From positions 8,431 to 72,430 of the forward strand of contig PCXZ01000034.1 of assembly GCA_002762985.1 (NCBI GenBank): a DNA stretch of 64,000 nucleotides, read 5' to 3'. The number at the start of each line of letters is the position of its first letter. Within the stretch, counting starts at the first letter, position 1. The stretch comes from Candidatus Woesearchaeota archaeon CG10_big_fil_rev_8_21_14_0_10_44_13. Lineage in GTDB: Archaea; Nanobdellota; Nanobdellia; Woesearchaeales; UBA12501. This document shows positions 9,058 through 50,336 of the stretch, piece by piece. The translations under genes were made by a program, and so were the position numbers. Below the pieces are notes generated by a model. It ran no database searches, was not told the origin of the DNA, and saw nothing but the letters and a program-made list of their open reading frames with translations.

Positions 9058-9066
9058 ATCAAGACC

Positions 9067-10077: not shown

Positions 10078-10088
10078 TTTATATGCCC

Positions 10089-11162: not shown

Positions 11163-11166
11163 TCGA

Positions 11167-14152: not shown

Positions 14153-14153
14153 T

Positions 14154-14759
14154 CTATTTTCCTCTTATCAGATTAAGATATTCAATAAATCCATAATAGA
14201 CGATATTGTTTTTGTATATCTGTTTTCCCAGATTTTCATAATCAACTTTCAGCATTTCCAAGAATTCATCTCTTGTCATGATATGATAGTCTATACGCAG
14301 AATCTCTCTTCTTTTTATTGTCTCCAGATAAGGGGATACTTCTTTTTTTGTCTTTTCTGATTCGACAATGATTGCTATATCCAGATCTGATTTCTCTTTT
14401 GCCTTGCCCTTGACATGGCTGCCGAATACGATTAAAATGAAAAATTCAGTATACCCCGATACCTTTGCCTGTATGCGCTTTAGCACATCCACCGGCATCT
14501 TGTTTTTGCTTATCTCCAGCTCATTTACAAGGTTTAAGTAGGATAATGTCAGGTTATTGTCCAAATTCAAAAAATAGGTCGTCACATCCCCTGTCTCTTT
14601 TGTCTTTATCAGGCCCTGCTTTTTGAATTCCTTTAACGCAATCTGGATCAGGTTGTTTGATTTCTGCCTAAGCTGCTCTTTTATCTGCCTGAAGGTGAGC
14701 CCTATAGATATGTCTCTTTTAAAACAGCCTATGATTTTTATCTGCTCTTTTGTCAGCAT
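14154..14759 (-). CDS. minimal nucleotidyltransferase (MNT) protein with an N-terminal winged-helix region; HEPN/MNT pair
   Basis: FILIVFGSHVKGKAKEKSDLDIAIIV is the GS-x(n)-D-x-D polymerase-beta-type NTase motif. It is adjacent to the HEPN gene. Confidence 0.65.
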   Translation of the reverse strand: MLTKEQIKIIGCFKRDISIGLTFRQIKEQLRQKSNNLIQIALKEFKKQGLIKTKETGDVTTYFLNLDNNLTLSYLNLVNELEISKNKMPVDVLKRIQAKVSGYTEFFILIVFGSHVKGKAKEKSDLDIAIIVESEKTKKEVSPYLETIKRREILRIDYHIMTRDEFLEMLKVDYENLGKQIYKNNIVYYGFIEYLNLIRGK

Positions 14760-16435: not shown

Positions 16436-19400
16436 GTGGATTTAGATATAAGGGGCTTTTGCCCTGGGAAGAGCAAGAAAGCTCAGCTTGCAGCTTTCAT
16501 CATAATAGGGATTCTCGTGCTGGCCATGGCCGGTGCCATACTCTATTTAGTCACTTCTGCGAAAAAGACAGAGGCAGAGCTGATTGTCGAGAAAGGCATG
16601 GAGGTGAGCCTTGACGAGACGAAGATAAGGGAATACATTACCGCGTGCATACAGAAAGAAGGCAGGGGCCTGGTCGACAAGATAGGGCTGCAGGGCGGAA
16701 CACTGAACTTGGACCAGTTCAGGTATTATTTCAATATGAAATATAATTATCATTGTTATGCCCAAGATGGTTTCGTCTGTGTTAACAGGCTTGTGACAAG
16801 GAATTCCATGGCCCAGGAGCTAAATGCAGCATTGAAGAACAGCCTCAAGAAATGCGTGAATTTCGAGAATTTCAGGAAACAGGGATATGATGTGAAAGAG
16901 CAGGACATGGATGTCAAGACAATTGTAGGGGTGGATGATGTTGATTTTGAGGTGATATATCCCATAACAATCTCCAAGGACAACAATGAGGTCATCCTGA
17001 AAGATTTCAGCGAAAAAGTGGATTCAAGGCTCGGCTTGATGTATGACCTGGCTGTAAAAATAGTCTACCATCACTCTATGGGCGGGGAATTTGACGAGGA
17101 CAGATGGATGCTTGAACATGGCCAGATAAGCATCTCCAAACACAAGCCCTATCCTGACATCATCTATTCGCTGAGCATCAGGGATGCTGCAACCAAAAAA
17201 GAGGAATCCTTCAATTTCGCAATCAAGGGCAGATACTCAATCTATGAGATAGGGCAGCCCACAAAAACCCTTGTAAGCAAAGGATATTGCAGGACAAAGG
17301 ACAATAACTGCTATGTCAATGTAGATCAGGGAGACTGCGCAAAATCATTAGGAGAATGGAGCAATGCCCCTTTCCAGGACGCCCAATGCAGAGGCATGGG
17401 CACCATGCCAGAGCCGGAATGCAAAGGCGATGAATGCAAGAATTGCGGGAAAAGGGAGAACGGCGAATCATGGTGCGAATATGAAGGCATTGTGAGCCCC
17501 GGCTTCTCATTGGTCGGGTCGAGGCATTACAAGGGAAGCTGCATAAACGGCAAGATCTATTACACAGAATGCAGGGATTACCGTGAGGAGATATGCCTGG
17601 AGAACACAGACATAGATGTGCCTAAGGCAGTATGCAGGCCTAACAGATGGCAGGACTGCGCAGAGCAGGGGAATGAGGAGGATTGCATGGACAATTCTGC
17701 AAGGGACTGCTGGTGGTCTGGCTGGCTTGAACTCAACAGGCAGGGCAAGTGCCTGCCTTACATCCCCCCTGGATTTGCGCATTGGCAGCAGAACGGCCAG
17801 GAAGTTTGCGCCATGGCGAATGAGCAGTATGACTGCGGCTATTATACCTGCGGCAAATCATGGGTCGATTCGAGCGCAATATACTGCTACAATATGGGTG
17901 ACTGCGGGAATTACAGGAACACAGAAGATGAGATAACAAAACAGGGATTCTTCAATTTCGACAGCACGCCTTCAGATTATGTCTACCTGACAGATGATCA
18001 GCTGAAAACAGAGATGAAGCCAAAGCTTAAGATGGAAGCGGCGTATGCCCCTGTGCTTGACGGAAAAGAGTATGAAAACCCCCATGGAACAATAAACGAA
18101 TTGATCAATAATGAAGTGAGGTATTTTGATGAGGTTTCAAACTGGAGATTCGAGGATTTCAGGACTAATTACCTGCTTACTGGAAAGATTTACATCCATG
18201 TCCTGCAGACAGCATTGTGCATGCCGTGGCAGGCGCCATACAAAGGCGATGACTGCAAGGAATGCGGCAGCCTGAACAGGCCCTGCACAGAATACAAATG
18301 CAGGAGTTTGGGGCAGACATGCACTTATGAGGAAGTCAATGGAATAGGCTTCTGCTATGATTATTCTGAGAAGGATGATATCCCTCCTAAGATTTTCTTT
18401 GATGGTGTTGTGTTCGGTGATGTGAAGATAGAGAGGGATGTTTTCGGAAAAACAGTTGGTTACAAGTTCAGCAAGCCGCTTGAGCCGAACACAATTGTGG
18501 TATTCTCGATAAATGCGACAGAACCTGTGAAATGCAAAGTAACGTCATTGCCGCAGCCTGAATTCGACCAGATACCCCTTCCAGCGCCCGGCACATTCCA
18601 GGATTATTACACTTTTGTTGATATTGTGCCTAAGGCCCCTGATTTCAGGATAGGCCTGATGAAGTCTTTAGGGGTGAATAACTTCCTTGAGCTCGGCACA
18701 TTTGAAACATACGACGATAAGTTCAAAAAGATAATCTATGATGCCAGGAAATTCGTCAAGGAATTCAAAGGGGGCATGAACAAGGAATTTGCAGAGCAGA
18801 ACATACAGAGGCTTGAGAATATGTGGAATGATGACATCGCACCCAACATAAAGAAAGCCTTTGAAAACCTGGGCGATACACTGAGGGATGTGGCAGTGCA
18901 GACAGAGCAGGGCAACAAGCTTGTTTTCTTCAAATGCATAGACAAGGCAGGGAATGAGAACACTGAAGACCTGTTCATAAAATACAGGATAGGGAAGGAT
19001 GAAAGCGCCCCTGTACTGATGGCTGCATTGCCTGTCAACAACACGAACATAAGCAGTTTTGGAAATCTTTCGCTCTATACGAATGAGCCTGCGAACTGCA
19101 GGTTTGCAGGAAGCGACATGCCTTATGACTCCATGCCCTTGAAGACAGAGACAGAATGCACTCTGCCTCTGATGATTGGAGCATTTAAGCTCTATGAATG
19201 CACACCAAGGGATATCAATGCTTCAAGCGACATAAGAACAAACATATATGTCAGGTGCAAGGATAATCCATTAAAAGTCGAAAGGTACATATTCAATCTC
19301 ACGAAAGGCGATGCCCTCATTCATCTTTTCCCTGAAAATGCCATGACAATAGACCTCAGGGAGAATGACAGGATAATAAACCTCACAATGGAGTTCGAAC

Positions 19401-19702
19401 AATACTTCACATTCCCCAAGGTGAAAGATATAATGGTGAATGCGGATGAGTATGAGATGATAATACAGTCCATAAGGGATGATATTGACTGCGGGTTCTC
19501 GGAAACGCCGGGATTGAGCGTCAGCCAGATGGTACCCATGGCCTGTGAAAAAGGCGGCCTTGAAGGCACATACCAGTGCAGGCATAAGGTCAATGTCCAG
19601 AATAACATGCTCTTTGAGATAGCATGCAGAGGCAGATTCCAGGAAGAGAAAAGGAACACAGCAAAAGAGAGCGCAGTATTGAGCTATCTAAACCTTCCTT
19701 GA
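16436..19702 (+). CDS. giant Cys-rich secreted protein, paralog A (1088 aa), with a class-III/type-IV-pilin-like signal peptide
   Basis: N-terminal ...KSKKAQLAAFIIIGILVLAMAG. Paralogous to 26540..30277 through shared blocks (RHYKGSCINGKIYYTECRDYREEICLE, VCRPNRWQDC, CTEYKCRSLGQTCTYEEVNGIGFCY, CIDKAGNENTEDL). It has more than 60 cysteines. Confidence 0.7.
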   Translation: MDLDIRGFCPGKSKKAQLAAFIIIGILVLAMAGAILYLVTSAKKTEAELIVEKGMEVSLDETKIREYITACIQKEGRGLVDKIGLQGGTLNLDQFRYYFNMKYNYHCYAQDGFVCVNRLVTRNSMAQELNAALKNSLKKCVNFENFRKQGYDVKEQDMDVKTIVGVDDVDFEVIYPITISKDNNEVILKDFSEKVDSRLGLMYDLAVKIVYHHSMGGEFDEDRWMLEHGQISISKHKPYPDIIYSLSIRDAATKKEESFNFAIKGRYSIYEIGQPTKTLVSKGYCRTKDNNCYVNVDQGDCAKSLGEWSNAPFQDAQCRGMGTMPEPECKGDECKNCGKRENGESWCEYEGIVSPGFSLVGSRHYKGSCINGKIYYTECRDYREEICLENTDIDVPKAVCRPNRWQDCAEQGNEEDCMDNSARDCWWSGWLELNRQGKCLPYIPPGFAHWQQNGQEVCAMANEQYDCGYYTCGKSWVDSSAIYCYNMGDCGNYRNTEDEITKQGFFNFDSTPSDYVYLTDDQLKTEMKPKLKMEAAYAPVLDGKEYENPHGTINELINNEVRYFDEVSNWRFEDFRTNYLLTGKIYIHVLQTALCMPWQAPYKGDDCKECGSLNRPCTEYKCRSLGQTCTYEEVNGIGFCYDYSEKDDIPPKIFFDGVVFGDVKIERDVFGKTVGYKFSKPLEPNTIVVFSINATEPVKCKVTSLPQPEFDQIPLPAPGTFQDYYTFVDIVPKAPDFRIGLMKSLGVNNFLELGTFETYDDKFKKIIYDARKFVKEFKGGMNKEFAEQNIQRLENMWNDDIAPNIKKAFENLGDTLRDVAVQTEQGNKLVFFKCIDKAGNENTEDLFIKYRIGKDESAPVLMAALPVNNTNISSFGNLSLYTNEPANCRFAGSDMPYDSMPLKTETECTLPLMIGAFKLYECTPRDINASSDIRTNIYVRCKDNPLKVERYIFNLTKGDALIHLFPENAMTIDLRENDRIINLTMEFEQYFTFPKVKDIMVNADEYEMIIQSIRDDIDCGFSETPGLSVSQMVPMACEKGGLEGTYQCRHKVNVQNNMLFEIACRGRFQEEKRNTAKESAVLSYLNLP

Positions 19703-20422
19703 TTTCACAAGATAGATTGCCGATGAAACTGCAAATACCACTATGCTTACCCACTGTGAAAATGTAAGGCCCAGATAGTTGAATGGGTATTCCCTCAAGA
19801 ACTCTATCATGAATCTCCCTGCTGAGTAGACCATAAGGTATTTCAGGAATATCTGGCCGAAGAATCTCCTATTGTGCCATCCGGAATAAAGATGGGCGAA
19901 CAGAACGATGTTGAAAAATGAGAGGTAAAGGCCGACAGGATGTCTTGCAGTGCCGTCAGGAAGCTTGACTGCCCACCATACGCCTGTTATCCTGCCCAAT
20001 GCGTCATTCACAAAGAAGCACCCTATCCTGGCGAAGAAGATCTCCAATGGGATCGCCATGCCCCAGAAATCCAGATGCTTCCAGAAATTATAACGGTTTA
20101 TTCTTGTGTAGACATACCCCAATAAGATTCCGCCGAACAACCCCCCATAAAAGACAAAGCCCCTGTTGAATATGCCTAAGATGCCGGCGCTGCTGCATGC
20201 TTCGTAAGGCCCGATATAGAACAGCAGTTTAGAGCCCAGCCATGCCCCTGCAAAGACCCACAATGATTCAATTATCATTATCTTCGGATGGATCTTCTGC
20301 CTGCGGCCCATGCGGATCAGGAACAGCACACCTACCGCCATGCCTATGAAAGCGAAAAGAGAATGGGGGGGCGTCTTTATCAGCCAGAATTCCCACATCT
20401 CCTTCGGGATTAAAGGGATCAT
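19688..20422 (-). CDS. prolipoprotein diacylglyceryl transferase (Lgt) family protein, paralog 2
   Basis: FARIGCFFVNDALG...RHPVGLY aligns with the Lgt G-R-x-G-N-F-x-N and HPxQLY regions. The start is taken at the ATG (MIPLIPKEMW), which matches the paralogs' MIPYEI/MIEYEM starts. Confidence 0.75.
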   Translation of the reverse strand: MIPLIPKEMWEFWLIKTPPHSLFAFIGMAVGVLFLIRMGRRQKIHPKIMIIESLWVFAGAWLGSKLLFYIGPYEACSSAGILGIFNRGFVFYGGLFGGILLGYVYTRINRYNFWKHLDFWGMAIPLEIFFARIGCFFVNDALGRITGVWWAVKLPDGTARHPVGLYLSFFNIVLFAHLYSGWHNRRFFGQIFLKYLMVYSAGRFMIEFLREYPFNYLGLTFSQWVSIVVFAVSSAIYLVKSRKV

Positions 20423-20577
20423 TTTAGCCTCCAAAAACCAATAGTGAACATGATGGCGCCTATGGCTGCAATTGACAGGGAGAATGACTTGATTGAGCTT
20501 ATGTGCAGGAAGCCGAAATCGATCAAAAAACCTCCTGCTATGACAAGAGCGAGATTAAGCGTGTTTTTCCCCATCAT
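20419..20577 (-). CDS. 52-aa two-helix membrane peptide (MMGKNTLNLALVIAGGFLIDFGFLHISSIKSFSLSIAAIGAIMFTIGFWRLK), translationally coupled to lgt paralog 2
   Basis: Not in the ORF track because it is under 60 aa. I translated the reverse strand by hand. The TGA stop overlaps the Lgt ATG (ATGA), and the sequence is hydrophobic with Gly-zipper-like GxxxG/AxxxG. Confidence 0.3.
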   Translation of the reverse strand: MMGKNTLNLALVIAGGFLIDFGFLHISSIKSFSLSIAAIGAIMFTIGFWRLK

Positions 20578-21229: not shown

Positions 21230-22204
21230 TTATTGTATAATCTTCTCCTTCTTCAGGTCAGAGACGCAGTCATGGCAGAACGAAACGCCGTACTTCCTTA
21301 TGCTCTTCTGCCTGCCGTCATAAGTGGCTTTGTCTATCCTCTCGCTCAACTTTGTCCTGTAGTCTGTCTCTAAAAAATGCTTCAGGTCGCCATGCTTCTT
21401 GTATCTGTAATAGCTTAGCTGAGGGATATTGCAGCAGACCCCGAAGCTTCCGTCAGGGAAAACTATGACCCCTCTGTCCAGGACAGAGCATACTTCCTCG
21501 CTGTGGCTGCCTAACCCTAAGAAAATCTGCTTCCCCTGCTCCCTGTACAGCTGAGAGATCCTGTAGGCCATATTGAAATAAAAGTTCATGTCTTCCTCTT
21601 TTGACAGGGTTTCCCTTTCTGTGGCTCCTCCCTGGGGGATTGCCCTGTACAAGGTCAATTTATCTGCGCCTAATTTAGTGAAGATGAAATCTGCTGTCCT
21701 CGGGATATCAGCAAGATTCTCTTTTGTCACGAGAGTTATGAAGCTGGCTCGTGAGGGTCTTGTCATTGCCCATGACCTTAATGCCCCCTCATAGGAGCCT
21801 TTGCCCCTCAATCTGTCATTCTTTTCCTGATCATAAGAATCGAGCGATATGGTGAGAGCCAGCTTCCTTATCCTGGCTAATCTTAGGAAATCGTTTGTTT
21901 TGAGATTGACGCCATTGGTCACAATGTCCATCTCAAATCCCAATGCAGCAGCATATTCGATTATGTCAAAGAATTTGGGATGGGTTGTAGGCTCGCCTCC
22001 TGAAAAGCTGACTGACTTGTACCTGAGCTCTTTCGCCTCTTTCAGCATCTCTTTGGCTGTCTCAAGATCCATTGAGCCTTTCTTCCCCTTGTACAGGCAA
22101 TGCTTGCAGTCCAGGTTGCAGTCGTATGTAAGGAAGATAGAGAGCCACCTGTCAAATCTTGCCCTGGATATTATATCCTCAAGAATCCCCTTCGAAAAAA
22201 GCAT
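21230..22204 (-). CDS. radical SAM enzyme with a SPASM/twitch C-terminal domain
   Basis: CNLDCKHC (CxxxCxxC), SFSGGEP, and C-terminal ...GVCCNIP...FCHDCVSD cysteines. Confidence 0.75.
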   Translation of the reverse strand: MLFSKGILEDIISRARFDRWLSIFLTYDCNLDCKHCLYKGKKGSMDLETAKEMLKEAKELRYKSVSFSGGEPTTHPKFFDIIEYAAALGFEMDIVTNGVNLKTNDFLRLARIRKLALTISLDSYDQEKNDRLRGKGSYEGALRSWAMTRPSRASFITLVTKENLADIPRTADFIFTKLGADKLTLYRAIPQGGATERETLSKEEDMNFYFNMAYRISQLYREQGKQIFLGLGSHSEEVCSVLDRGVIVFPDGSFGVCCNIPQLSYYRYKKHGDLKHFLETDYRTKLSERIDKATYDGRQKSIRKYGVSFCHDCVSDLKKEKIIQ

Positions 22205-22287
22205 TCAGGGCATTAAACGAACATTGTTTATATATTTTTTTGTTGAAAATTGATAATATTAATAAAACAGGGAGGATATCCCAGGAT

Positions 22288-26462: not shown

Positions 26463-26539
26463 ACAGGTACATGATTATAGATAATCATATCGCAACCGGA
26501 ATATCACGATCAAAACACAATCAAAAAAGAGCAGATAAG

Positions 26540-29500
26540 ATGAACGGAAAAAAGAGGTGCAAGAAAGGCCAGATGGCTGCATTTGTCCTTATAGGGCTTA
26601 TCCTGCTGATAGGCTCTGCTGCGCTCACTTATGTTCTTTATGTTGCAAAAAAAGCCCCAAGCGATCAGTATTTCCTCGAGCAGCTGCCGGAATCCCTTGA
26701 CAAGACTTCCCTTGATACATTGATGAGATCGTGCATAAAAAAAGTCTCTGATCCTGAGCTTATCAGGATCGCCAAGTACGGCGGGACCATAAGTCCGAAA
26801 GTTAATGAATACCGGACCTATAACAAGACAAGATACAGGTATCTTTGCGACCAGAAGCCTGGCTATACTGAATGCGTGAACAAGATACTCACAAGGGAAA
26901 GCATGCAGGAAGAGCTTCAGGACAAGATAACTGTCGAGGTCGCAGCATGCATGAGTCCGGCGCTGAAATTCTATGAGGACAGGGGATATGAGATAAAATC
27001 AAGCCAGCCTAGCACAAAGGTGATAATAGCCCCTGATGATGTCAACGTCATAGTCAATTATCCTCTTGTCGTCTCAAAAGATGCCACAAAGATAAACACG
27101 ATGGATTATTCTGTGCAGTTCGATTATCCTCTCGGCAAATTGTATGACCTTGCCATGGAGATACTGAACAGCGAGAACAGCGCGGGATATTTCAACCAGG
27201 AAGGATGGATGTTCAACCACAGCATAGAGGTGTTGATACAGAAGCACAGGCCTTATCCTGATGTGACCTATAAGCTGAGCAAGTATGACTGGGAGAAGAA
27301 AGAGCATTATGTCTTCAATTTCGCGCTGCAGGGATATGACAGGCTGCCTGAGCTTGCTGGCCTCGGGTCTTTAGGGTCCAGCGGGCAGATGATAGCATCT
27401 CCTGCTGCTGCCAGATCAAATGCTTATGACCAGAACATGGGATGCTGCAACAACAAGAAAGACGGGAATTGTTTTGAGAATGCAGACAAGAGCTCATGCA
27501 TGAACAACGGCCTTGAATTCAGGACAGGGACATGCGCGCAGAGCGGATTCACGTGCAAGCCCATATCAGAGGATAAGTTCGACAACAGGACAGGGCTCTG
27601 CTATGGCAGGAGATGCAATGCGTGCATGAACGGCACATATGAGTATGGGGACAATGTGAACGATCCTTCCACTTACAGCGGCCCTGCAAAGATGAACGGC
27701 GAGTCCTGGTGCTCGTATGAAGGGCCGAGCGGCCAGGGCCTTGATGCAGTGGGCTCAAGGCATTACAAGCAGATCTGCGTAGACGGGTCAATGCTCGTAG
27801 AGGAATGCGGCGATTACAGGACAGACATCTGTGTTGAACAGGCAGAGACCATAAACGGAAGGCAGATGACAAGGGCTGTCTGCAGGCCGAACAGGTGGCA
27901 GGACTGCCATCTCTTCGGGAGCAACCAGGCAGAATGCACAGACACAGGCAAGAGAGACTGCTATTGGAATGTATTCCAGGATAATTTCCTATTGGGGAAA
28001 CCTCGCGATCAGAGCGAACCAGGCACAGTCACTTCATATGAGGAGAGGCATTGCGCGCCTCAAGTCCCGCCCGGATTGAGATTCTGGAATACTTTGGAAG
28101 GGATGCAGGTCTGCGGATGGGCGAACAATTATTATGAATGCGCTGCTCCGGGATGCTTCCAGGAATGGACCGAGTTCGATGCCATCTACTGCGCAATGCA
28201 GGGAGACTGCGGCATCTACAGGAATTACCTCGGAAAGCTGCCTGAGCTCTCATTGAACAACCTATTCCCTGGAGCAGGGCAATTGCCCGGCGTAGGCACA
28301 AGCTCTATGGGCGGAGGATTCGTGAGCGCGCCGAACCTCATCAATAACCAGATATACGAGCTAGTCCTCCCCAATGCGCAGAATTTCGCGCTTAAGACGT
28401 ACCAAAAGGCGGGAAAGCTGCCATCATATCCTAAAGAGTGGTACCCGAAAACAGTCACTCCTGACATGTTCATACATAACTCCCCGAATGATTATTCCAT
28501 GCTTGGCATCATGAGCTTCTTCCAGAGGTTCGTCGATTGGGGCATGGACAAGCTCAACAATATCGAGGATGACATATGGGACCTCATAGTCCATGGTGAA
28601 TCCATGGAATGGACGGCTCTTGGCGTGAGCATGTGCAATGTCTGGACTCCGAGCACTTCAGCGATCGACTGCGAGAAATGCAACGGCAATCCTTACAGGC
28701 CATGCACGGAATACAAATGCAGGAGCCTTGGCATGTACTGCAATTATGAGGAGATAGACGGAGTGGGCAAATGCTCTTCATATGAGACGTCCACTATAGG
28801 AAAGCCTGTTGTGCAGTTCGACGGCCAGATAACGCCTGGCTACACTACCAAAGGATCGACATTGGCTTCTTCAGATACTGCTTATGTGGGAAAAGAGATA
28901 ATCGAAGCATTGAAGACAGATTATACATTCCAGATAAAGACGAACAGGGAAACCCAATGCATGCTCACTGTAGTGCCCGGAGCATCGTTCGGAATGAACC
29001 CTCCTTTCCCAGGGACAGCGACAGACTACAGCTTCAGGACAAAGCATAATCTCACAATACCTTATACGACTGCTGACGGGCTCTCTGTGATGCTATTGCC
29101 TCTCCAGCTGATGAGCATGATCAGTTTCAATCCTGACCAGATCTGGGCGATATTCAATAACATGGCGAACAGGATAATAACTTATATGGAAGACCTGACT
29201 GATGACTGCAATGACTGCAATGACTGGGATCCGAGCACTGGTTGCGGTAACATCGGCCTTATGGCCCTGAGCAATGATGACTGCGATGAGATGGAAGACA
29301 AGACTGACCAGATCAAGAGCATGTTCTCGCAGATAACTGATTTCTGGCAGAATACAGTAAAGCCGGAAGTGGAGAAGTGGCTGAACACGGCGCAGAAGAA
29401 TGCCATCGATGAGGTATTGAATTATGCCGTTGCCCAGCACAAATACCATGCGTTCGTGAAATGCAGGGACAGGGGGGGGAATGAGAATGAAGTAGACCTT

Positions 29501-30277
29501 GATTTCATAAGGTTCAAGATCAGCCCCAATCCATTGGCTGCTGCACAGGTCCCGGACGGGCCTCCTATTGTAAGGGCGATCGAGCCTCAGAACTGGACAG
29601 AGCAGAGCCCTGATGAAGCAGGCAGGAAAGAGGTCTATGTTTACCTTAATCAACTGTCTGAATGCGCTTATGGCACATCAGACCAGGAATTCATTTACAT
29701 GAATAACAAGTTCCAGTGCCCGAAATCAACATATTACGGCGGCCTTGCAGGAGGATATGTCTGCAATTCAAGCAGACCTTTCGATGAATTGAAGAACCCT
29801 GGCGCGCCGATATACATCAAATGCATAGACCATCCTGAACATTATGAGACATTCAGCTTCAGGCTTGAGCAGGGGACAGAATACGCAGGACCGCAGAGAT
29901 CCGAATGGATAAAGCCAATCACAGAAGGCGAACCAGGCACAGTCATAATAAAGGACCCTAAAACGATAAACCAGAGCATGGAGAAGATAACCGTACCGAG
30001 CATGAGCGTGAAATTCTTCATTGAATTCAAGAGGCAGGAGAACGACAATGAGAAGGCTCTTGAATGCAGATATGCGCCTACGCAGGCAGGGGCCTCTTCA
30101 GGCACGACATTCGTCGATCCCAAGAGCGGAGGCACGCAATGCGACAACTGCACAGCTCTGCTGACTGCGACAGGCACGGACTATTATGTATGGTGCCATT
30201 TCAAGACAGAGCAGAGGAACGCAGGCCAGGCATACCAGTATGTGCTGCAGGAAGCCGCTGCTGAAGCCACGACATGA
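26540..30277 (+). CDS. giant Cys-rich secreted protein, paralog B (~1245 aa from ATG 26540), with a class-III/type-IV-pilin-like signal peptide
   Basis: N-terminal MNGKKRCKKGQMAAFVLIGLILLIGSAALTY. It shares the same conserved blocks as paralog A (RHYKQICVDG...CGDYRTDICVEQ, VCRPNRWQDC, CTEYKCRSLGMYCNYEEIDGVGKCS, CRDRGGNENEVDL). Confidence 0.7.
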   Translation: MNGKKRCKKGQMAAFVLIGLILLIGSAALTYVLYVAKKAPSDQYFLEQLPESLDKTSLDTLMRSCIKKVSDPELIRIAKYGGTISPKVNEYRTYNKTRYRYLCDQKPGYTECVNKILTRESMQEELQDKITVEVAACMSPALKFYEDRGYEIKSSQPSTKVIIAPDDVNVIVNYPLVVSKDATKINTMDYSVQFDYPLGKLYDLAMEILNSENSAGYFNQEGWMFNHSIEVLIQKHRPYPDVTYKLSKYDWEKKEHYVFNFALQGYDRLPELAGLGSLGSSGQMIASPAAARSNAYDQNMGCCNNKKDGNCFENADKSSCMNNGLEFRTGTCAQSGFTCKPISEDKFDNRTGLCYGRRCNACMNGTYEYGDNVNDPSTYSGPAKMNGESWCSYEGPSGQGLDAVGSRHYKQICVDGSMLVEECGDYRTDICVEQAETINGRQMTRAVCRPNRWQDCHLFGSNQAECTDTGKRDCYWNVFQDNFLLGKPRDQSEPGTVTSYEERHCAPQVPPGLRFWNTLEGMQVCGWANNYYECAAPGCFQEWTEFDAIYCAMQGDCGIYRNYLGKLPELSLNNLFPGAGQLPGVGTSSMGGGFVSAPNLINNQIYELVLPNAQNFALKTYQKAGKLPSYPKEWYPKTVTPDMFIHNSPNDYSMLGIMSFFQRFVDWGMDKLNNIEDDIWDLIVHGESMEWTALGVSMCNVWTPSTSAIDCEKCNGNPYRPCTEYKCRSLGMYCNYEEIDGVGKCSSYETSTIGKPVVQFDGQITPGYTTKGSTLASSDTAYVGKEIIEALKTDYTFQIKTNRETQCMLTVVPGASFGMNPPFPGTATDYSFRTKHNLTIPYTTADGLSVMLLPLQLMSMISFNPDQIWAIFNNMANRIITYMEDLTDDCNDCNDWDPSTGCGNIGLMALSNDDCDEMEDKTDQIKSMFSQITDFWQNTVKPEVEKWLNTAQKNAIDEVLNYAVAQHKYHAFVKCRDRGGNENEVDLDFIRFKISPNPLAAAQVPDGPPIVRAIEPQNWTEQSPDEAGRKEVYVYLNQLSECAYGTSDQEFIYMNNKFQCPKSTYYGGLAGGYVCNSSRPFDELKNPGAPIYIKCIDHPEHYETFSFRLEQGTEYAGPQRSEWIKPITEGEPGTVIIKDPKTINQSMEKITVPSMSVKFFIEFKRQENDNEKALECRYAPTQAGASSGTTFVDPKSGGTQCDNCTALLTATGTDYYVWCHFKTEQRNAGQAYQYVLQEAAAEATT

Positions 30278-31174: not shown

Positions 31175-31229
31175 GGTTCCATTAAATCATCTGGATCAAT
31201 CATCTGAATCGACAAGAGGGAAAAGAAGA

Positions 31230-46138: not shown

Positions 46139-47155
46139 ATGCAAAAAAGAGCCCAGCTGAGCGTATTCATAGTGGTTGGATTGATAATCCTTGCCGCAAT
46201 AGGTTTTCTTGTCTATATCAAACAGCCTAAAGCAGAGGAAGTGCCCGCGTCGATGGCTCATGTGAAGATTTTTGTCGACCAATGCGTCAAGAAGGTCGGC
46301 GAGGATGCCTTGGTGAATCTCGGATTAGGCGGTGGATATCTTTATTTTGATAATGTGGAGGCATTGCCGGCCTATTATGGGGATACTGCTTACTGGTACA
46401 TCGCAGGATACAATTTCGCCCCGAAGGATGAGATAGTCAAGGGGCAGATTGACAGGTATATGAAAGAGAACCTCAACTCCTGCCTGAACAATTTTGATGA
46501 TCTGCATGAGAACATAACATTCGGTGAAGTGGAGAGCAGTGCAGACATATTGCCTGACAAGGTCATATTCAATATAGATTTTCCTGTCACATTGAACGAC
46601 AGAGACATACAAAAGACAATATCATCTTTCTCGGGTGACGTGAACATAAGATTAGGCAGGATACTGAGCGCAGGAAGGAAAGTGATTGCCAAGGAGATGG
46701 AAGATCCTCTCAGCATAGACCTTACTTATCTCTCCCAGCTTGATCTGCCTGTGACTGCTTTCCATTATGACGACAGGATACTCATCTATATGATAAGGGA
46801 TTTTGATTATTCTGCAGAGAACCCTTACAGGTTCTTATTCGCGAGCAGGCTTGGCAAGGACAAGGAATTGGGCAACAGGCCTCCTTACTTCACAAACCTG
46901 GAGTTCATACTTGCTGCTGTCGGAGAGGATGTAAGCGCCAGGATAGAAGCGGTCGATCCTGAAGGCGACAAGATTATCTATAATGCAATAACACCCTTGT
47001 TTTTAATCGGGAATGACGGTTCGATAAGGTTTACGCCAATGGAAGATGATGTCGGAGTCTATGATGTTGTTGTAGAGGCAGAAGACAGCAAAGGGGCTGT
47101 GACTGCTGAAACACTGCATGTGGAAATATATCCTGAAGGGACTGCGCTGGAGTGA
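46139..47155 (+). CDS. 338-aa secreted protein with a class-III/pilin-like signal peptide; stand-alone version of the N-terminal domain of the giant Cys-rich proteins
   Basis: N-terminal MQKRAQLSVFIVVGLIILAAIG. The next ~250 aa align with the N-domains of 16436 and 26540 (C[IV]KK...GLGGGYL; D.P..LNDRD...). Confidence 0.6.
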   Translation: MQKRAQLSVFIVVGLIILAAIGFLVYIKQPKAEEVPASMAHVKIFVDQCVKKVGEDALVNLGLGGGYLYFDNVEALPAYYGDTAYWYIAGYNFAPKDEIVKGQIDRYMKENLNSCLNNFDDLHENITFGEVESSADILPDKVIFNIDFPVTLNDRDIQKTISSFSGDVNIRLGRILSAGRKVIAKEMEDPLSIDLTYLSQLDLPVTAFHYDDRILIYMIRDFDYSAENPYRFLFASRLGKDKELGNRPPYFTNLEFILAAVGEDVSARIEAVDPEGDKIIYNAITPLFLIGNDGSIRFTPMEDDVGVYDVVVEAEDSKGAVTAETLHVEIYPEGTALE

Positions 47156-47159
47156 GAAG

Positions 47160-50100
47160 ATGAAAAGACTGATTGTTTTGATGCTGGTCGGGATGATGCT
47201 TGCAGGAGCTGTTATTGCTGCAGAAGAGACAGCACAAGTCGGTTATGAAAAATGCCTTGATGACAAACAGACAAAACCATCAGAGATGGCTAAATGCCTG
47301 GAAGGATTCAAAGACTGGGACAAGGTAAAGCCTGACGACCTTGCTCAGATACTGGCAACTTGCAATGAATGCATCCAGAAGATAGACTGGTCGAAAATAA
47401 AGATCCCGGGCAGTGTTGACCCAAGTACTGCAATAAAAATACTCGGCTATGCCGGTGCGAATGGAAAATTGAACGATCTCGGCCAAGAAAACTTGAAAAT
47501 CGCTTTGGGAAAAATATGCAGGGTATCTGTTGAAAGCATAAACATCCTGGGTAATGTCGGACAGAACATAAGATTCGAGGATCTGCCTCCTACGCTGACA
47601 GTAGGCGACAGATACAATTACCCTCTTCAGGGCGTACAGAGCATAAAGATAGAGGGGGACATTGTTTCTGTTTCTTACAGCGACACGGCAATATTGCCTC
47701 TTAATTTGAAGATAAACGGCCAGGATGTTACATGCGACAAAAGCGCAAAAGACGGCTGCAAAGGCCTTAATGTTTATTGTAAAGGCAACGAATGCAAAAT
47801 CATTGTGGCAAATGGCCCATTGAAGATCGGGGACCTTCCATTGATAGCCAGCGGAGAGATAACCTATAAGCAGGGTGAGGGCGGGAAGATAGAACTCACG
47901 AAAATAAACGCTAAAATAGCTCCTAGAGACTGTAAATACCCAAGTATTTTTAACATGGACGGGAAAAAGATAATCATACCTTATGTAGCACTACCAACAG
48001 AAGCGGAAATCAATCTTGAGCTGACAAAGTGCGGGACAGCAAATAATATCCCCTGCTTAAAGATAAATAAGGCGACAGAAGGAGTTATATTCTTCACCCC
48101 CCAACCCCCTGACCATCTAGGCAGGCTTGTTGCTGGGAAAGGAGGGATAACAAATGGGTTTATTGCATCAGACAGCAGCATCGTTTCAGTCAGCCAGGGA
48201 GACGCAACATATTATGATTACACCATATGCAGTAAAAACCCCGATGAAAAATGTGATTTAAGCAAGGTATTCCCCATCTTCTCAGGCAGATTCACAGTAG
48301 GCTATTCAAACAATAAGCTGAGCAGCGCATTATTGAATGAAGGCAGCACAGCGGTATTCGGGAATGGGTACACAAGAAGCCTTAAAGGCACAAGCTATGT
48401 TGGCTTTGAGGTCCCACAGGGCGTGAATGTGGATACATCTGATGGGATGATGCCGTCTGAATATTCGCAGGCATTCCTTGCGATGAAAAACAAGCTTGAT
48501 CTGCGCCAGAATGCGGTCATACTTCTGCCGACAGGCGCTGTAGGTTTTGCTGCTGATGGAGGCAGCATAGAGGTCGCTGCAAGGATAGGGAAGAAAGATG
48601 AACCCTGGAGACAGGTGGCAATCAATCCAGGTGCCTATGCAGGCACTTTTGACATAGACACAGAGGTCATAGGCATTGAGAGGGTGGATGTCGGCATAGG
48701 TGCATGGAAGCCCGATCTTGCAAGGAAACAGGAAGGAGGAAGATTAGGCTCATTATACCAGTCAAACAGCGCAGAACCGAATATAGGAAAACTCACTTTC
48801 AGCCTGAATCAGGATGGGGGCATAAGCGTAGCTGAGGACAGGAATTCCAACCAGGCAGGCACTTATACAAGAGTAGATGGGATAAAAGGCATCCCGCCCG
48901 GCAAAGGGGATAATGTGGCAAGAGTGGACGGCACTGTCCTGATGATGCCAGGAGGGGTTGTGTTCGGCATGGGCAATCTGGGCAGCGGAGAGGCGAGTGC
49001 CGCATTAAAAAATAAGATAGTTGATTACATGAAACAGAACAAGCTCCCGGATATCGCAAAAACCGCCCTGATATTCGCTCCGATAGACCCGACAATAACT
49101 TCGCAAAAAACATTCGAATGGGTTAGTGCTTTCTCAGGCTGCAAACCTGAAGATAAGTCAGATGCGTGCAATAAGTTCAATGAAGAGATAGGTAAGATTG
49201 TCGCTGATCCGAATGTGTACAGCCTCCCAATACCTTCGCCCGTAAATCCTACAAGAATTTTAGGCACAGGACAGCCTGGTGAAATCGAACCAGGGGCATC
49301 TGGTGTTCCTTTAGGGGATATCCCTCTTAAATTGCAGGAAGCATGCAATTCCCCTAAGACGGCTGCAGAGTGGAAAGTCTGCAGGGAAGCGTGGAATAAA
49401 GGATGGCAGGAGCTTGGGCCAAATGTCATGATGGAATACTGCGCTTATGTCCCCCGCCAGGGAATGAACAGGAATTCTGAGATACAGCAGAACCTATGCC
49501 TGATGGGGATAAACACGGGGACGATCGACGGCTGGTATGGAAGGATGACAAGAACTGGAGTTAGGGAATTCCAGCAGACATTCAATGCTCTGCCTGCTGA
49601 CACAAGGGCAGGCTGCAACTGCGTATTCGGCCAGAGTAGATTGAGAGTTGACGGTGTTTTCGGCGATAATACCCTTTGCGCTTATAATTGCGTAGTGAGC
49701 AGCGGATATTCCGGCAAAGTGCAGAATGCAGTCATAGTCGCAAAGCAGGCGAACAGGCCTGTGGCAACAGAGGACTTCCAGGCTGAGCCGAAGAATACAG
49801 GTGCAGGAGAACCGGCTGGTGTAGCAGCGTCCGTAAAGCCGGCAGAACCTGTTACTCCTGCTACTGCTCCTAAACCTATATGTCCTGCTGCTTGTCCTAG
49901 AAAGGATGAAGTTTGTAATGAAGCAACAGGAATTTGCGGACCCAAATCAGCTGCAATAGTAAGTCCAGTTGCGCCTGTTGCTGCAAAAACACCATCTTTA
50001 CCTGCTCCTCCAACTAATCTCCCAAAAACTGCAGTCCAATATGTATCTGGAGAGGGGAATACCCAGGTTGTGGGGGTTGATATCACTAAATTACCGGATA

Positions 50101-50336
50101 ACCCTAATGTTAAAGGATCGCAAACGCCTGGAAAGGTAACTACGGCTAAAAGCGGCATGCAAGCGATGGTAGCAGCAGCATTATATGGTGATCCAAGAGG
50201 TAAAACCGTGCAATTGCAGGTTATAACTGAAGGAAACAAAGTAAGAGTAGATTGTAACAGATTTGTTAGGCCTGCAGGAGTAACTGATGCAAACTGGTGC
50301 AATTTCCAAAAGACTTATTGTGGAAAATCCTGTTAG
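47160..50336 (+). CDS. 1059-aa secreted protein with a C-terminal peptidoglycan-binding-like (PG_binding_1-type) module and a Pro/Ala linker
   Basis: Signal peptide MKRLIVLMLVGMMLAGAVIAAEE. The module IDGWYGRMTRTGVREFQQTFNALPADT...VDGVFGDNTL fits the [DN]G.[FY]G..T..A[LV]..FQ ... DG..G..T pattern. A PAEPVTPATAPKP linker follows, then a C-terminal domain. Confidence 0.6.
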   Translation: MKRLIVLMLVGMMLAGAVIAAEETAQVGYEKCLDDKQTKPSEMAKCLEGFKDWDKVKPDDLAQILATCNECIQKIDWSKIKIPGSVDPSTAIKILGYAGANGKLNDLGQENLKIALGKICRVSVESINILGNVGQNIRFEDLPPTLTVGDRYNYPLQGVQSIKIEGDIVSVSYSDTAILPLNLKINGQDVTCDKSAKDGCKGLNVYCKGNECKIIVANGPLKIGDLPLIASGEITYKQGEGGKIELTKINAKIAPRDCKYPSIFNMDGKKIIIPYVALPTEAEINLELTKCGTANNIPCLKINKATEGVIFFTPQPPDHLGRLVAGKGGITNGFIASDSSIVSVSQGDATYYDYTICSKNPDEKCDLSKVFPIFSGRFTVGYSNNKLSSALLNEGSTAVFGNGYTRSLKGTSYVGFEVPQGVNVDTSDGMMPSEYSQAFLAMKNKLDLRQNAVILLPTGAVGFAADGGSIEVAARIGKKDEPWRQVAINPGAYAGTFDIDTEVIGIERVDVGIGAWKPDLARKQEGGRLGSLYQSNSAEPNIGKLTFSLNQDGGISVAEDRNSNQAGTYTRVDGIKGIPPGKGDNVARVDGTVLMMPGGVVFGMGNLGSGEASAALKNKIVDYMKQNKLPDIAKTALIFAPIDPTITSQKTFEWVSAFSGCKPEDKSDACNKFNEEIGKIVADPNVYSLPIPSPVNPTRILGTGQPGEIEPGASGVPLGDIPLKLQEACNSPKTAAEWKVCREAWNKGWQELGPNVMMEYCAYVPRQGMNRNSEIQQNLCLMGINTGTIDGWYGRMTRTGVREFQQTFNALPADTRAGCNCVFGQSRLRVDGVFGDNTLCAYNCVVSSGYSGKVQNAVIVAKQANRPVATEDFQAEPKNTGAGEPAGVAASVKPAEPVTPATAPKPICPAACPRKDEVCNEATGICGPKSAAIVSPVAPVAAKTPSLPAPPTNLPKTAVQYVSGEGNTQVVGVDITKLPDNPNVKGSQTPGKVTTAKSGMQAMVAAALYGDPRGKTVQLQVITEGNKVRVDCNRFVRPAGVTDANWCNFQKTYCGKSC

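What the first reader, a model, noticed from the sequence alone, without database searches (positions are those of the whole stretch)
16436..16560. Class-III (type IV pilin-like) signal peptides on very large proteins
Three proteins begin with a basic stretch, then (A/G)-Q and a conserved helix: KKAQLAAFIIIGILVL, KKGQMAAFVLIGLILL and KRAQLSVFIVVGLIIL. This is the archaeal prepilin-peptidase substrate pattern ([KR]-[GA] cleavage site, then Q and a hydrophobic helix). Archaeal type-IV-pilin-like proteins are usually small pilins or substrate-binding proteins. Here the signal heads proteins of more than 1000 aa, which could be giant pilus-tip adhesins or 'bindosome'-like surface structures. The other two instances are at 26540 and 46139.
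Basis: partly seen in the sequence, partly recalled or inferred. Interest (0 to 1): 0.6.

Follow-up and report, generated by a model that had tools for sequence, protein, structure and literature searches.

The report
Prepilin-like heads on giant archaeal surface proteins
Three surface-protein genes of a tiny uncultivated archaeon (Woesearchaeota) begin with the same very conserved pilin-type start signal, part of a huge, unnamed family-specific "carrier" module that is fused to, or encoded next to, giant cysteine-rich secreted proteins and probably displays them on the cell surface.

Summary
The N-terminal motif is real and not chance. Three ORFs start with a basic leader, [KR]-[AG]-Q and a hydrophobic helix. 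Only two are giant (1088 and 1245-1268 aa).

The three are paralogs, not independent cases. They share a Woesearchaeota/Nanoarchaeia-specific "N-module": leader, K-K-[G/S/A]-Q-[IV]-[TS]-x-F-I-I-x-G helix, variable linker and a ~210-aa alpha/beta domain. The module has no Pfam or PDB relative and 9310 cluster representatives.

The junction matches archaeal class III signals, above all the Q+1 sites cut by Methanococcus EppA. It is the most conserved stretch of the protein.

In related genomes the module is a separate ~255-aa protein. It is followed by a Sec-secreted giant colinear with the rest of A and B, then four small [KR]-G-Q proteins, then an S-layer gene. A and B are therefore fusions of carrier and cargo.

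No peptidase or pilus ATPase lies in the window or in 1.35 Mb of related loci. Curated class III models do not match, and the fold search is inconclusive.

Verdict: probable prepilin-like carriers of giant surface proteins. Cleavage and pilus incorporation are unproven.

The parts
16436..19702 (+). Gene A, 1088 aa: N-module fused to giant Cys-rich cargo (GTG start, AGAGGTG Shine-Dalgarno-like site upstream)
   Evidence: ORF and translation. More than 150 homologs, all named hypothetical. AF2 model pLDDT 85, pTM 0.75.
16436..16483 (+). A: 16-aa basic leader VDLDIRGFCPGKSKKA ending in K-K-A (positions -3 to -1)
   Evidence: The same long leader occurs in the closest homologs P0002 and P0003.
16484..16552 (+). 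A: Q17 (putative +1) plus the conserved hydrophobic helix QLAAFIIIGILVLAMAGAILYLV
   Evidence: Q17 and G25 are conserved in at least 90% of sequences. Logo. Highest information content in the protein, 2.83 bits per column. Helix 14-42 in the model.
16616..17245 (+). A: N-domain (aa 61-270), a disulfide-containing alpha/beta domain that always accompanies the motif
   Evidence: Model pLDDT 91.6. Invariant C71 and C140. 70 of 70 motif-bearing ORFs in related loci carry this domain. 9310 cluster representatives.
17246..19699 (+). A: cargo region with a Cys-rich core (about 40 invariant or near-invariant Cys), a helical segment and C-terminal beta-sandwich domains
   Evidence: Cys columns. (secondary structure). 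Only generic Ig/FN3/adhesin/S-layer-like fold matches. Colinear with separate Sec-secreted giants in L077-L083.
26540..30277 (+). Gene B, 1245 aa from the ATG at 26540 (the ORF opens at 26471): full-length paralog of A
   Evidence: (E 4e-116). The start is supported by homologs P0105 and P0110.
26540..26647 (+). B: leader MNGKKRCKKG, Q (26570-26572) and hydrophobic helix
46139..47155 (+). Gene C, 338 aa: N-module plus one Ig-like (Big_9-like) domain; not a giant protein
   Evidence: stop at 47155. (E 2e-15 to A over aa 14-266). (Big_9, 23.1 bits, just under the cut-off). (NCBI name: hypothetical protein COV19_07280, Candidatus Woesearchaeota archaeon CG10_big_fil_rev_8_21_14_0...).
46139..46219 (+). 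C: leader MQKRA, Q6 and hydrophobic helix QLSVFIVVGLIILAAIGFLVYI
47160..50336 (+). Gene D, about 1058 aa with a Sec-type signal peptide and a PG_binding_1 domain. It starts 4 nt after C. Candidate separately encoded cargo or partner of C.
   Evidence: Eight of the 12 short (<400 aa) N-module genes in the loci, plus C itself, are followed within -7..+13 nt by a gene for a large Sec-signal protein; a ninth, L084, has one 246 nt downstream. D has no homolog among the other loci.

Best explanation
A, B and C belong to a very large superfamily specific to Woesearchaeota, Nanoarchaeia and Nanobdellota. The family is defined by an N-terminal carrier module:
- a short basic leader;
- the junction [KR]-[KR]-[G/S/A]|Q;
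- a conserved helix of about 22 hydrophobic residues, Q-[IV]-[TS]-x-F-I-I-x-G...;
- a variable linker;
- a disulfide-bonded alpha/beta domain of about 210 aa.

I read the junction as a type IV prepilin-like (class III) signal of the Q+1 kind.

Inferred mechanism:
1. The protein is inserted with the leader in the cytoplasm.
2. An A24 aspartic peptidase (FlaK/PibD/EppA-like) removes the leader.
3. Gln becomes the new N-terminus.
4. The conserved helix then holds the protein in the membrane. Alternatively it is extracted into a short pilus or pseudopilus built with small pilin-like partners.

The N-domain serves as a dock or carrier for giant, disulfide-rich, beta-sandwich-rich surface proteins. 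These are likely adhesins or envelope components of these host-dependent archaea. In A and B the carrier and cargo are fused. For C, the cargo is probably the next gene, D.

Shown by tool results: the motif and its conservation, the module architecture, the fusion/fission relationship, and the operon with four small [KR]-G-Q proteins and an S-layer gene in relatives.

Inferred only: cleavage, the peptidase, any filament, and the adhesive role.
For: 1. All three N-termini fit the class III pattern, and only they do in six frames.
2. Conservation is of the type IV pilin kind. Positions -3 to +14 carry 2.83 bits per column, against 2.05 for the N-domain and 1.07 for the linker. Position -1 holds G, S or A in 106 of 114 located junctions, and Q17 is conserved in at least 90% of alignment A1.
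3. The junction equals the EppA sites KGQI, KGQV, KGQL and RAQI of M. maripaludis pilins. EppA requires Q at +1 (PMC4371748).
4. In L077, L079, L081, L083, L085 and L086 the stand-alone N-module and/or the Sec-secreted giants lie in one co-directional cluster with four small conserved proteins. Each begins with [KR]-G-Q or [KR]-G followed by a hydrophobic helix; two have Glu at +3 or +6. An S-layer gene follows.
5. A residues 13-269 align to the stand-alone module. A residues ~335-965 align to the giant encoded 2-13 nt downstream, which has its own Sec signal. This indicates gene fusion or fission.
6. Eight of 12 short module genes in the loci, and C itself, are immediately followed by a gene for a large Sec-signal protein; L084 has one 246 nt downstream.
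7. The lineage has class III substrates and, by annotation, the machinery. An archaellin (PF01917, E 3e-25) lies 8.5 kb from a family member in L034, and small K-A-Q or K-G-Q proteins occur in L034 and L065. FlaI, FlaJ and FlaK are reported in most Woesearchaeota MAGs (PMC11606122, PMC5994134, PMC8407392).
8. About 40 conserved Cys and Ig-like domains indicate an extracellular location.
Against: - PF04021 (Class_IIIsignal) scores only 9-12 bits against a cut-off of 23.7, in 2 of 8 N-termini. No pilin or archaellin N-terminal model matches.
- +5 is Phe in 96 of 114 homologs, not the Glu typical of EppA substrates.
- Ser at -1 occurs in 35 of 114 homologs. This is outside the classical [GA] set as I remember the FlaFind rule.
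- No A24 peptidase, FlaI/PilB-type ATPase or FlaJ/TadC lies in the 64-kb window. Crude motif scans found none in 1.35 Mb around 80 family members.
- The small pilin-like genes were found only in the lineage with split genes, not near A, B or C.
- In the sampled loci, every ORF matching the family-specific 11-residue motif also has the N-domain, 70 of 70. That motif could therefore be a feature of this one module rather than a general sorting signal, although the simpler [KR]-[GAS]-Q junction does occur on other small proteins.
- The helix is separated from the domain by a variable, low-confidence linker.
- One preprint states that T4P components are missing from DPANN genomes (10.1101/2020.05.14.094862).
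Confidence: 0.5

Rival explanations
1. Uncleaved N-terminal signal anchor. The helix is an ordinary type II membrane anchor inserted by Sec/YidC. The K-K-x-Q-..F...G conservation reflects lateral contacts of this helix within the membrane, such as oligomerisation or binding to a partner membrane protein. It does not reflect recognition by a prepilin peptidase. The proteins are simply membrane-tethered surface proteins.
For: - The family-specific motif never occurs without the N-domain, 70 of 70 ORFs.
- A variable linker follows the helix.
- Curated class III models fail.
- No peptidase or ATPase is nearby.
- My FlaFind-like rule also fires on ordinary TM helices and Sec signals: 18 positives among ORFs of at least 100 aa that lack the N-domain.
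- LGT-like membrane protein genes lie within 1 kb of family members in 9 loci and could be membrane partners.
Against: - A plain anchor gives no reason for a strictly small residue at -1, with G, S and A exchanged freely, or for a Gln conserved in at least 90% of sequences at the polar/hydrophobic boundary.
- Five otherwise unrelated proteins of one operon share the same [KR]-G-Q junction.
- The junction is identical to experimentally mapped EppA sites (PMC4371748).
Confidence: 0.3
2. Envelope (S-layer-associated) stalk-and-canopy system. The N-module is a membrane stalk and the giant Cys-rich protein is an outer-layer component, by analogy with SlaB/SlaA of Sulfolobus. The small [KR]-G-Q proteins are further membrane-anchored envelope subunits, and no filament is formed. 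This is compatible with or without leader cleavage.
For: - The cluster of giant, N-module, giant and four small proteins lies next to an S-layer protein gene (PF05124) in L077, L081, L085 and L086.
- The family is present in essentially the whole lineage and in several copies per genome. At least 556 stretches were found in species-representative genomes, including three loci in one MAG.
- Cell-surface glycan genes flank homolog P0023.
Against: - No detectable sequence or specific fold similarity to any known S-layer protein.
- These genomes already encode a recognisable S-layer protein.
- Several divergent paralogs per genome, and variable cargo such as D with its PG_binding_1 domain, fit adhesins better than a lattice protein.
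Confidence: 0.15
3. The similarity of the three N-termini is a trivial consequence of hydrophobic composition or of chance.
For: Short hydrophobic segments often look alike. The generic hits to FliL, LPXTG anchors and similar models show how unspecific such helices are.
Against: - 0 matches in 100 shuffles.
- The proteins are paralogs.
- Position-specific conservation across more than 100 homologs at about 30% identity.
Confidence: 0.01

Closest known systems
EppA-processed type IV pilins of Methanococcus maripaludis (EpdA-E; DUF361 / PF04021 'QxSxE' class III signals)
   Same: Short basic leader and the junction [KR]-[GA]|Q-[IVL]. There is a hydroxyl residue at +3 and a hydrophobic helix follows. 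Q at +1 is near-invariant (PMC4371748).
   Different: +5 is Phe, not Glu, and Ser is frequent at -1. PF04021 scores below threshold. The proteins are 250-1470 aa rather than under 200 aa. A variable linker and an unrelated 210-aa domain follow the helix. No EppA-type peptidase has been identified here.
Sulfolobus 'bindosome' sugar-binding proteins (GlcS, AraS) with class III signals, assembled by BasABC/BasEF
   Same: A class III-type N-terminus sits on a large globular extracellular protein that is not itself a pilin. The hydrophobic N-terminus plausibly serves as the anchor, and small pilin-like accessory proteins are involved. This is from my own knowledge and PMC4371748.
   Different: There is no solute-binding domain and no adjacent ABC-importer context for A, B or C. 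The hits to the BasB model are noise (13.6 bits against a cut-off of 230). The lineage and the module are different.
Bacterial modular type IV pilins (S. sanguinis PilB/PilC, CofB, ComZ, GspK)
   Same: The N-terminal class III signal and carrier part are fused to bulky functional modules. These are proposed to be tip-located adhesins (PMC8179133).
   Different: These proteins are archaeal and the carrier domain is not a recognisable pilin fold. The cargo is larger: 1088-1468 aa, against a maximum of 860 aa in that survey. The linker lies between the helix and the carrier domain. No IPR012902-type N-methylation motif is present.
PilY1/PilC adhesin plus the four minor pilins FimU-PilV-PilW-PilX of bacterial T4aP
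   Same: In relatives, one operon encodes four small pilin-like proteins together with a non-pilin giant of 1000 aa or more that has a Sec signal. This is the 'carrier plus effector' logic discussed in PMC8179133.
   Different: There is no sequence or fold relationship and no beta-propeller. An extra 255-aa N-module protein is present, and in A and B it is fused to the giant. The assembly ATPase and platform are not linked.
Large class III-signal or adhesin-like proteins and S-layer-like proteins in archaeal T4P loci (Makarova, Koonin and Albers 2016)
   Same: The locus composition is similar: several pilin-like genes, a large Cys-rich secreted protein or proteins, and an S-layer-like gene. 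Pilin sets can be encoded apart from the ATPase/TadC pair (PMC4858521).
   Different: That census did not cover Woesearchaeota; the term is absent from the paper. [quoted passage not shown] This family has no arCOG- or Pfam-based name that I could find.

Membership tests
Archaeal class III (type IV prepilin-like) signal peptide | Short, charged leader ending in [KRDE]-[GA], directly followed by the hydrophobic stretch and within the first ~40 residues | tested here: met
   A has KKA|Q, B has KKG|Q and C has KRA|Q. All three pass a FlaFind-like regex written from memory. In homologs, -2 is K/R in 103 of 114. Position -1 is G or A in 71 of 114 and S in 35 of 114.
Archaeal class III (type IV prepilin-like) signal peptide | Hydrophobic H-domain of about 20 residues starting at the cleavage site; the N-terminal segment is the most conserved part of the protein | tested here: met
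   There are 22-25 hydrophobic residues after the Q. Information content is 2.83 bits per column for -3 to +14, higher than any other region.
Archaeal class III (type IV prepilin-like) signal peptide | Match to curated models (Pfam PF04021 Class_IIIsignal, PF07790, PF01917; NCBIfam archaeal flagellin or pilin N-terminal models) | tested here: not met
   PF04021 scores only 9.0 and 11.8 bits (cut-off 23.7) in 2 of 8 N-termini. No hit for A, B or C. The other hits are generic TM noise.
Archaeal class III (type IV prepilin-like) signal peptide | Leader removed by an A24 aspartic prepilin peptidase (FlaK/PibD/EppA) | not testable with these tools
   This needs N-terminal proteomics or a cleavage assay.
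Archaeal class III (type IV prepilin-like) signal peptide | A prepilin peptidase gene exists in the same genome | tested here: inconclusive
   None is present in the 64-kb window, in 4.7 kb upstream, or, by a crude regex, in 1.35 Mb of related loci. The rest of the genome could not be reached. FlaK homologs are reported for most Woesearchaeota MAGs (PMC11606122, PMC5994134, PMC8407392).
EppA-type substrates (Q+1 pilins) | Gln at +1 | tested here: met
   Q17 is conserved in at least 90% of the 57 sequences of alignment A1. A Q-anchored junction was located in 114 of 124 collected sequences.
EppA-type substrates (Q+1 pilins) | Glu at +5 (QxSxE motif) | tested here: not met
   +5 is F in 96 of 114 and Y in 7. 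Glu occurs only in the co-operonic small proteins sp3 and sp4 of relatives.
Type IV pilin / modular pilin | Continuous long alpha1 helix whose C-terminal half packs on an antiparallel beta-sheet (pilin fold) | tested here: inconclusive
Type IV pilin / modular pilin | Genetic linkage to the assembly ATPase (PilB/FlaI) and platform protein (PilC/TadC/FlaJ) | tested here: not met
   None is present in the window. No FlaI-type Walker A protein was found in 85 loci. Unlinked pilin sets are known in archaea (PMC4858521).
Type IV pilin / modular pilin | Co-operonic with other pilin-like (class III) proteins | tested here: inconclusive
   This is met in relatives L077, L079, L081, L083, L085, L086 and L065. 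It is not met around A, B or C in this window.
Sulfolobus-type bindosome binding protein | Extracellular solute-binding domain with a cognate ABC importer | tested here: not met
   A, B and C have no SBP family hit. The ABC genes at 30380-31973 are an ABC-2 exporter-type pair.
Archaeal S-layer protein | Recognisable S-layer domain, or specific structural similarity to a known S-layer protein | tested here: not met
   There is no Pfam, NCBIfam or PDB sequence hit. Only generic beta-sandwich similarity was found. Relatives encode a separate PF05124 S-layer protein next door.

The most novel reading that the evidence does not exclude
The N-module family would be the missing pilin class of Woesearchaeota and Nanoarchaeia. 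It would be a lineage-specific, prepilin-like carrier that, together with four small Q+1 pilin-like proteins, builds a short type IV filament or pseudopilus. The tip or shaft of that filament would present giant disulfide-rich proteins of more than 1000 aa, fused or docked, making it the host-attachment organelle of these ultrasmall archaea. The repeated fusion and fission between carrier and Sec-secreted cargo would record that physical complex. The recurrent neighbouring LGT-like genes might add a further, so far unknown, maturation step.
Probability: 0.2. Interest if true: 0.8.

Novelty: new variant of a known kind. Interest (0 to 1): 0.58.

Why it matters
DPANN archaea such as Woesearchaeota are abundant, mostly uncultivated and thought to live attached to hosts. 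How they attach is largely unknown.

Published censuses either did not find their pilins (PMC4858521 for 'nanoarchaea') or state that pilus components are missing (10.1101/2020.05.14.094862).

This finding gives several concrete handles:
- a superfamily of 9310 cluster representatives with a precise, testable processing site (|Q);
- a defined carrier domain;
- identifiable cargo proteins;
- in some lineages, a compact operon with four small pilin-like proteins next to the S-layer gene.

If cleavage and assembly are confirmed, it would extend modular or tip-adhesin pilins to archaea with the largest cargo yet seen. It would also give candidate host-recognition molecules for DPANN symbioses.

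If the helix proves to be a plain anchor, the family is still a major unannotated class of DPANN surface proteins.

Tried and rejected
1. Pfam and NCBIfam on full-length A, B, C and D gave no family for A or B. C has only a sub-threshold Big_9 hit, and D has PG_binding_1.
2. Pfam and NCBIfam on isolated N-termini at E up to 10 gave only noise: FliL, LPXTG anchors, BasB at 13.6 bits, Tad at 13.7 bits, and PF04021 below threshold.
5. The afdb50 library was unavailable.
6. PDB sequence searches with both profiles found nothing relevant.
7. I looked for pilus machinery in several ways:
- Pfam on nearly all window ORFs.
- Contexts of homologs P0023 and P0087.
- A walk beyond the window ends.
- A Walker A regex and a GxGD-type regex over 85 loci.
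Nothing was found, but these regexes are crude.
8. A search for sp2 homologs, to see whether this genome (locus tag COV19) has the small pilin-like genes, gave 22 hits, none from COV19.
9. I rejected the idea that P0019 replaces the motif with a Sec signal. The motif sits at about residue 113, behind an upstream extension.
10. I rejected a lipobox reading of the 'CC' motif at the start of the giants, because the residues before the Cys do not fit [LVI][ASTVI][GAS]C.
11. The paper PMC161584 (PibD specificity) is not held. The tolerance of Ser at -1 therefore rests on memory only.
Full report
**1. Observation**

The window encodes three proteins with the described N-termini.
- A, 16436-19702 (+), 1088 aa, GTG start: VDLDIRGFCPGKSKKA|QLAAFIIIGILVLAMAGAILYLV.
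- B, ORF 26471-30277 (+), 1268 aa: MNGKKRCKKG|QMAAFVLIGLILLIGSAALTYVLYV. The probable start is the ATG at 26540, because close homologs begin MIGKKRCRKAQ and MMGKKRCKRGQ.
- C, 46139-47155 (+): MQKRA|QLSVFIVVGLIILAAIGFLVYI.

A protein-level regex over all six frames finds only these three sites, each at the head of a long ORF. A degenerate DNA pattern for the motif hits A and B, with 0 matches in 100 dinucleotide-preserving shuffles.

Two corrections are needed. First, C is 338 aa. Second, the three N-termini are not independent. A and B are full-length paralogs (27% identity, E 4e-116), and C shares the first ~260 residues with A (E 2e-15).

**2. Organism and context**

Nop56/58, fibrillarin, SecDF, pyruvate:ferredoxin oxidoreductase and aminoacyl-tRNA synthetases show an archaeon. 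Protein C is identical to NCBI 'hypothetical protein COV19_07280 [Candidatus Woesearchaeota archaeon CG10_big_fil_rev_8_21_14_0...]'.

Pfam on nearly all ORFs of the window found no A24 prepilin peptidase, no FlaI/PilB-type ATPase and no FlaJ/TadC. No small pilin-like ORFs are present.

**3. The family**

A has more than 150 homologs of 850-1470 aa. All are unnamed and have no Pfam domain. They come from Woesearchaeota, Nanoarchaeia and Nanobdellota MAGs. A scan of species-representative genomes found at least 556 encoding stretches, often several per MAG.

A Q-anchored junction could be located in 114 of 124 collected sequences. The logo built on those 114 is:

| Position | Residues |
|---|---|
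| -3 | K/R in 92 |
| -2 | K/R in 103 |
| -1 | G 41, S 35, A 30 |
| +1 | Q (anchor; at least 90% in alignment A1) |
| +2 | I/V/L |
| +3 | T 74, S 26 |
| +5 | F 96, Y 7 |
| +9 | G 101 |
| +21 | Y 72 |

Leaders are mostly 3-10 residues long. Positions -3 to +14 are the most information-rich stretch of the whole protein. They carry 2.83 bits per column, against 2.33 for the Cys-rich core, 2.05 for the N-domain and 1.07 for the linker that follows the helix.

About 40 Cys columns are invariant or nearly so, which fits a disulfide-rich extracellular protein. A membrane-anchored thioredoxin/DsbA-like gene lies at 43998-45026.

**4. Architecture**

The AlphaFold model of A (pLDDT 85, pTM 0.75) has these parts:
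- helix 14-42;
- a low-confidence linker at 43-60;
- an alpha/beta domain at 61-270;
- a Cys-rich region;
- a long helical segment;
- C-terminal beta-sandwich domains.

**5. Motif and N-domain form one module**

I searched 1.35 Mb of related loci (5467 ORFs of at least 50 aa). The family-specific motif occurs in 70 ORFs, and all 70 also carry the N-domain.

A profile of the module finds 9310 representatives of 50%-identity clusters at E up to 1e-3, and 7170 at E up to 1e-10. The 150 best have these lengths:
- 80 are 1000 aa or longer.
- 26 are 800-999 aa.
- 8 are 400-799 aa.
- 9 are 300-399 aa.
- 27 are shorter than 300 aa.

The module therefore exists on its own (~250 aa), with one Ig-like domain (C), and fused to giant regions (A and B).

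**6. Fusion/fission and operon evidence from relatives**

In L077, L078, L079, L081, L083 and L084 the N-module is a separate protein of about 255 aa, for example MEKRGQVTIFVILGIV... In five of these loci a giant protein gene follows within 2-13 nt or overlaps by a few nt; in L084 it starts 246 nt downstream. The giant has its own Sec signal peptide and a 'CCEKT..G..C.Y' start.

A residues 13-269 align to the stand-alone modules (E 1e-24 to 1e-38). A residues ~335-965 align to the adjacent giants (E 1e-20 to 1e-38). A and B are therefore colinear fusions of a carrier gene and a cargo gene.

Eight of the 12 short module genes (<400 aa) in the loci, and C itself with D, are directly followed by a gene for a large Sec-signal protein. 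The cargo is not always homologous: D has no relative in the loci.

In L077, L079, L081, L083, L085 and L086 the cluster continues with four small conserved proteins.

| Protein | Size | N-terminal pattern or example |
|---|---|---|
| sp1 | ~165 aa | K-[RQ]-G-Q-L-[LF]-G-Q-P in most members |
| sp2 | ~320-360 aa | K-[KR]-G-[LV]-S in most members |
| sp3 | ~170-180 aa | K-x-G-Q-[LIV]-x-[ML]-x-E in most members |
| sp4 | ~140-165 aa | [KR]-x-[GA]-Q-[AMS]-E |

Each of these junctions precedes a hydrophobic helix. An S-layer protein gene follows (PF05124, E 7e-9). Five otherwise unrelated proteins of one operon thus share the junction [KR]-G-Q plus helix. This is the strongest indication that the junction is a shared sorting and processing signal.

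The sp2 family is small, with 22 hits, and none comes from the genome of this window.

**7. Is the lineage equipped for class III processing?**

In L034 a bona fide archaellin (PF01917, E 3e-25) lies 8.5 kb from a family member. A 120-aa archaellin-like protein beginning MKKAQHAVGMMIIF lies about 1 kb away (25.8 bits, just under the cut-off).

L065 has a family member plus a cluster of small K-[GA]-Q proteins, for example ...KKAQSLSLNTIIIAVLALIV.

Three comparative-genomics papers report FlaI, FlaJ and FlaK homologs in most Woesearchaeota MAGs (PMC11606122, PMC5994134, PMC8407392). One preprint states that T4P components are missing in DPANN (10.1101/2020.05.14.094862). I could not inspect the rest of this genome.

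**8. Comparison with known signals**

The experimentally supported EppA sites of M. maripaludis pilins are RAQI, KGQV, KGQV, KGQL and KGQI. EppA needs Gln at +1 (PMC4371748). A, B and C have KAQL, KGQM and RAQL.

The differences are:
- Phe instead of Glu at +5.
- Ser is frequent at -1.
- The curated PF04021 model does not reach threshold, scoring 9-12 bits against 23.7.

A FlaFind-like rule, written from my memory of Szabo et al. 2007, accepts A, B and C. It also accepts 18 ORFs of at least 100 aa that lack the N-domain, including ordinary TM helices and Sec signals. It is therefore weak evidence on its own.

**9. Interpretation**

The most likely reading (about 0.5) is that the module is a prepilin-like carrier. 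The leader is removed by an A24 peptidase, leaving Gln as the new N-terminus. The conserved helix either stays in the membrane, as in the Sulfolobus bindosome, or enters a short filament together with small pilin-like proteins. The N-domain carries giant Cys-rich surface proteins, fused in A and B and separate in C with D.

The main rival (about 0.3) is an uncleaved signal anchor whose helix is conserved for intramembrane contacts. A further reading (about 0.15), compatible with either, is an S-layer-associated stalk-and-canopy assembly, suggested by the constant neighbourhood of the S-layer gene.

"Bindosome-like" fits the architecture (signal, helix, linker, large domain) but not the content, since there is no solute-binding domain.

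**10. Novelty**

Class III signals on large proteins are already known. Examples are the large adhesin-like proteins in archaeal T4P loci (PMC4858521), the Sulfolobus binding proteins, and bacterial modular pilins of up to 860 aa together with the PilY1/minor-pilin logic (PMC8179133).

What is new here is:
- an unannotated, very large, DPANN-specific carrier module;
- cargo of more than 1000 aa;
- the carrier/cargo fusion-fission pattern;
- the conserved operon with four small Q+1 proteins next to the S-layer gene.

I file it as a new variant of a known kind.

Noticed in passing
window 7433-8320(+), 19688-20434(-), 22159-23244(+), 23314-24303(+); also L006, L010, L019, L020, L036, L042, L062, L072: The window holds four paralogs of prolipoprotein diacylglyceryl transferase (LGT, PF01790; E 2.5e-21 to 6e-46), which is unusual for an archaeon. 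One overlaps the 3' end of gene A, and two lie between A and B. LGT homologs occur in 19 of 85 loci. In 9 loci they lie within 1 kb of a family member, mostly in divergent orientation. The functional link is unknown.
   Followed up: partly
window 8329-13616 (-): GC content drops to 31%, against about 45% elsewhere. The stretch holds a cluster of three radical SAM genes (one with a SPASM domain, one B12-binding), a GT2 glycosyltransferase and a methyltransferase. It looks like an acquired modification island.
   Followed up: no
window 47160-50336 (+): A Sec-signal protein of about 1058 aa with a peptidoglycan-binding domain (PG_binding_1, E 1.5e-7) in an archaeon, encoded 4 nt after gene C. It might bind a bacterial host wall or pseudomurein. 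It has no homolog in the fetched loci.
   Followed up: partly
window 24322-25377 (+) and 25527-26462 (+): Directly upstream of B lies a very Cys-rich secreted or anchored protein with a MopE-type metal-binding motif (E 2.6e-13). Next to it is a 311-aa protein with an internal TM helix and a Cys-rich C-terminus.
   Followed up: no
window 43998-45026 (-): A membrane-anchored thioredoxin/DsbA-like protein (VSR_TRX E 3.9e-9; weak Thioredoxin_4 and DSBA hits). It is a candidate extracytoplasmic disulfide oxidoreductase for the many Cys-rich surface proteins encoded nearby.
   Followed up: no
L005 1544-5511 (4.7 kb upstream of the window start) and window 280-2919: A cluster of secreted proteins with N-terminal hydrophobic helices and beta-rich regions rich in N-x-S/T sequons (76, 215, 391, 444, 173 and 657 aa). 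They have weak Ig-like hits and no family assignment. This may be another surface structure.
   Followed up: no
L034 7643-14323 (-), 7281-7646 (-) and 14737-15540 (+): A 2226-aa protein rich in Ig-like domains, whose C-terminus resembles an archaellin domain (weak PF01917 hit), is followed by a 120-aa archaellin-like gene. A true archaellin lies nearby. All of this is next to a family member.
   Followed up: partly
L065 10638-11063 and 14128-18605: A cluster of five or six small proteins with class III-like starts, for example KKAQSLSLNTIIIAVL and KKGLTTEAVGTLVLF. It lies within 10 kb of a family member in a Nanoarchaeota MAG. None has a Pfam family.
   Followed up: partly
window 13673-14759 (-): A HEPN and nucleotidyltransferase gene pair, typical of a toxin-antitoxin-like module.
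   Followed up: no
L013, L015, L017, L021, L022 and others (record titles): Many MAGs that carry this Woesearchaeota-type family are titled 'uncultured Methanosarcinales archaeon' in their records. One (L074) is titled Acidobacteriota bacterium. These are probably mislabelled or contaminated bins.
   Followed up: no
L071 1-2841 (-): A 947-aa protein beginning MRKGQAAIGLALILVALALLLL. It has the same K-G-Q junction but no N-domain. It carries a concanavalin A-like lectin domain (Laminin_G_3, E 9e-14) and Ig-like domains. This is a possible second kind of large class III-type adhesin in the lineage.
   Followed up: partly
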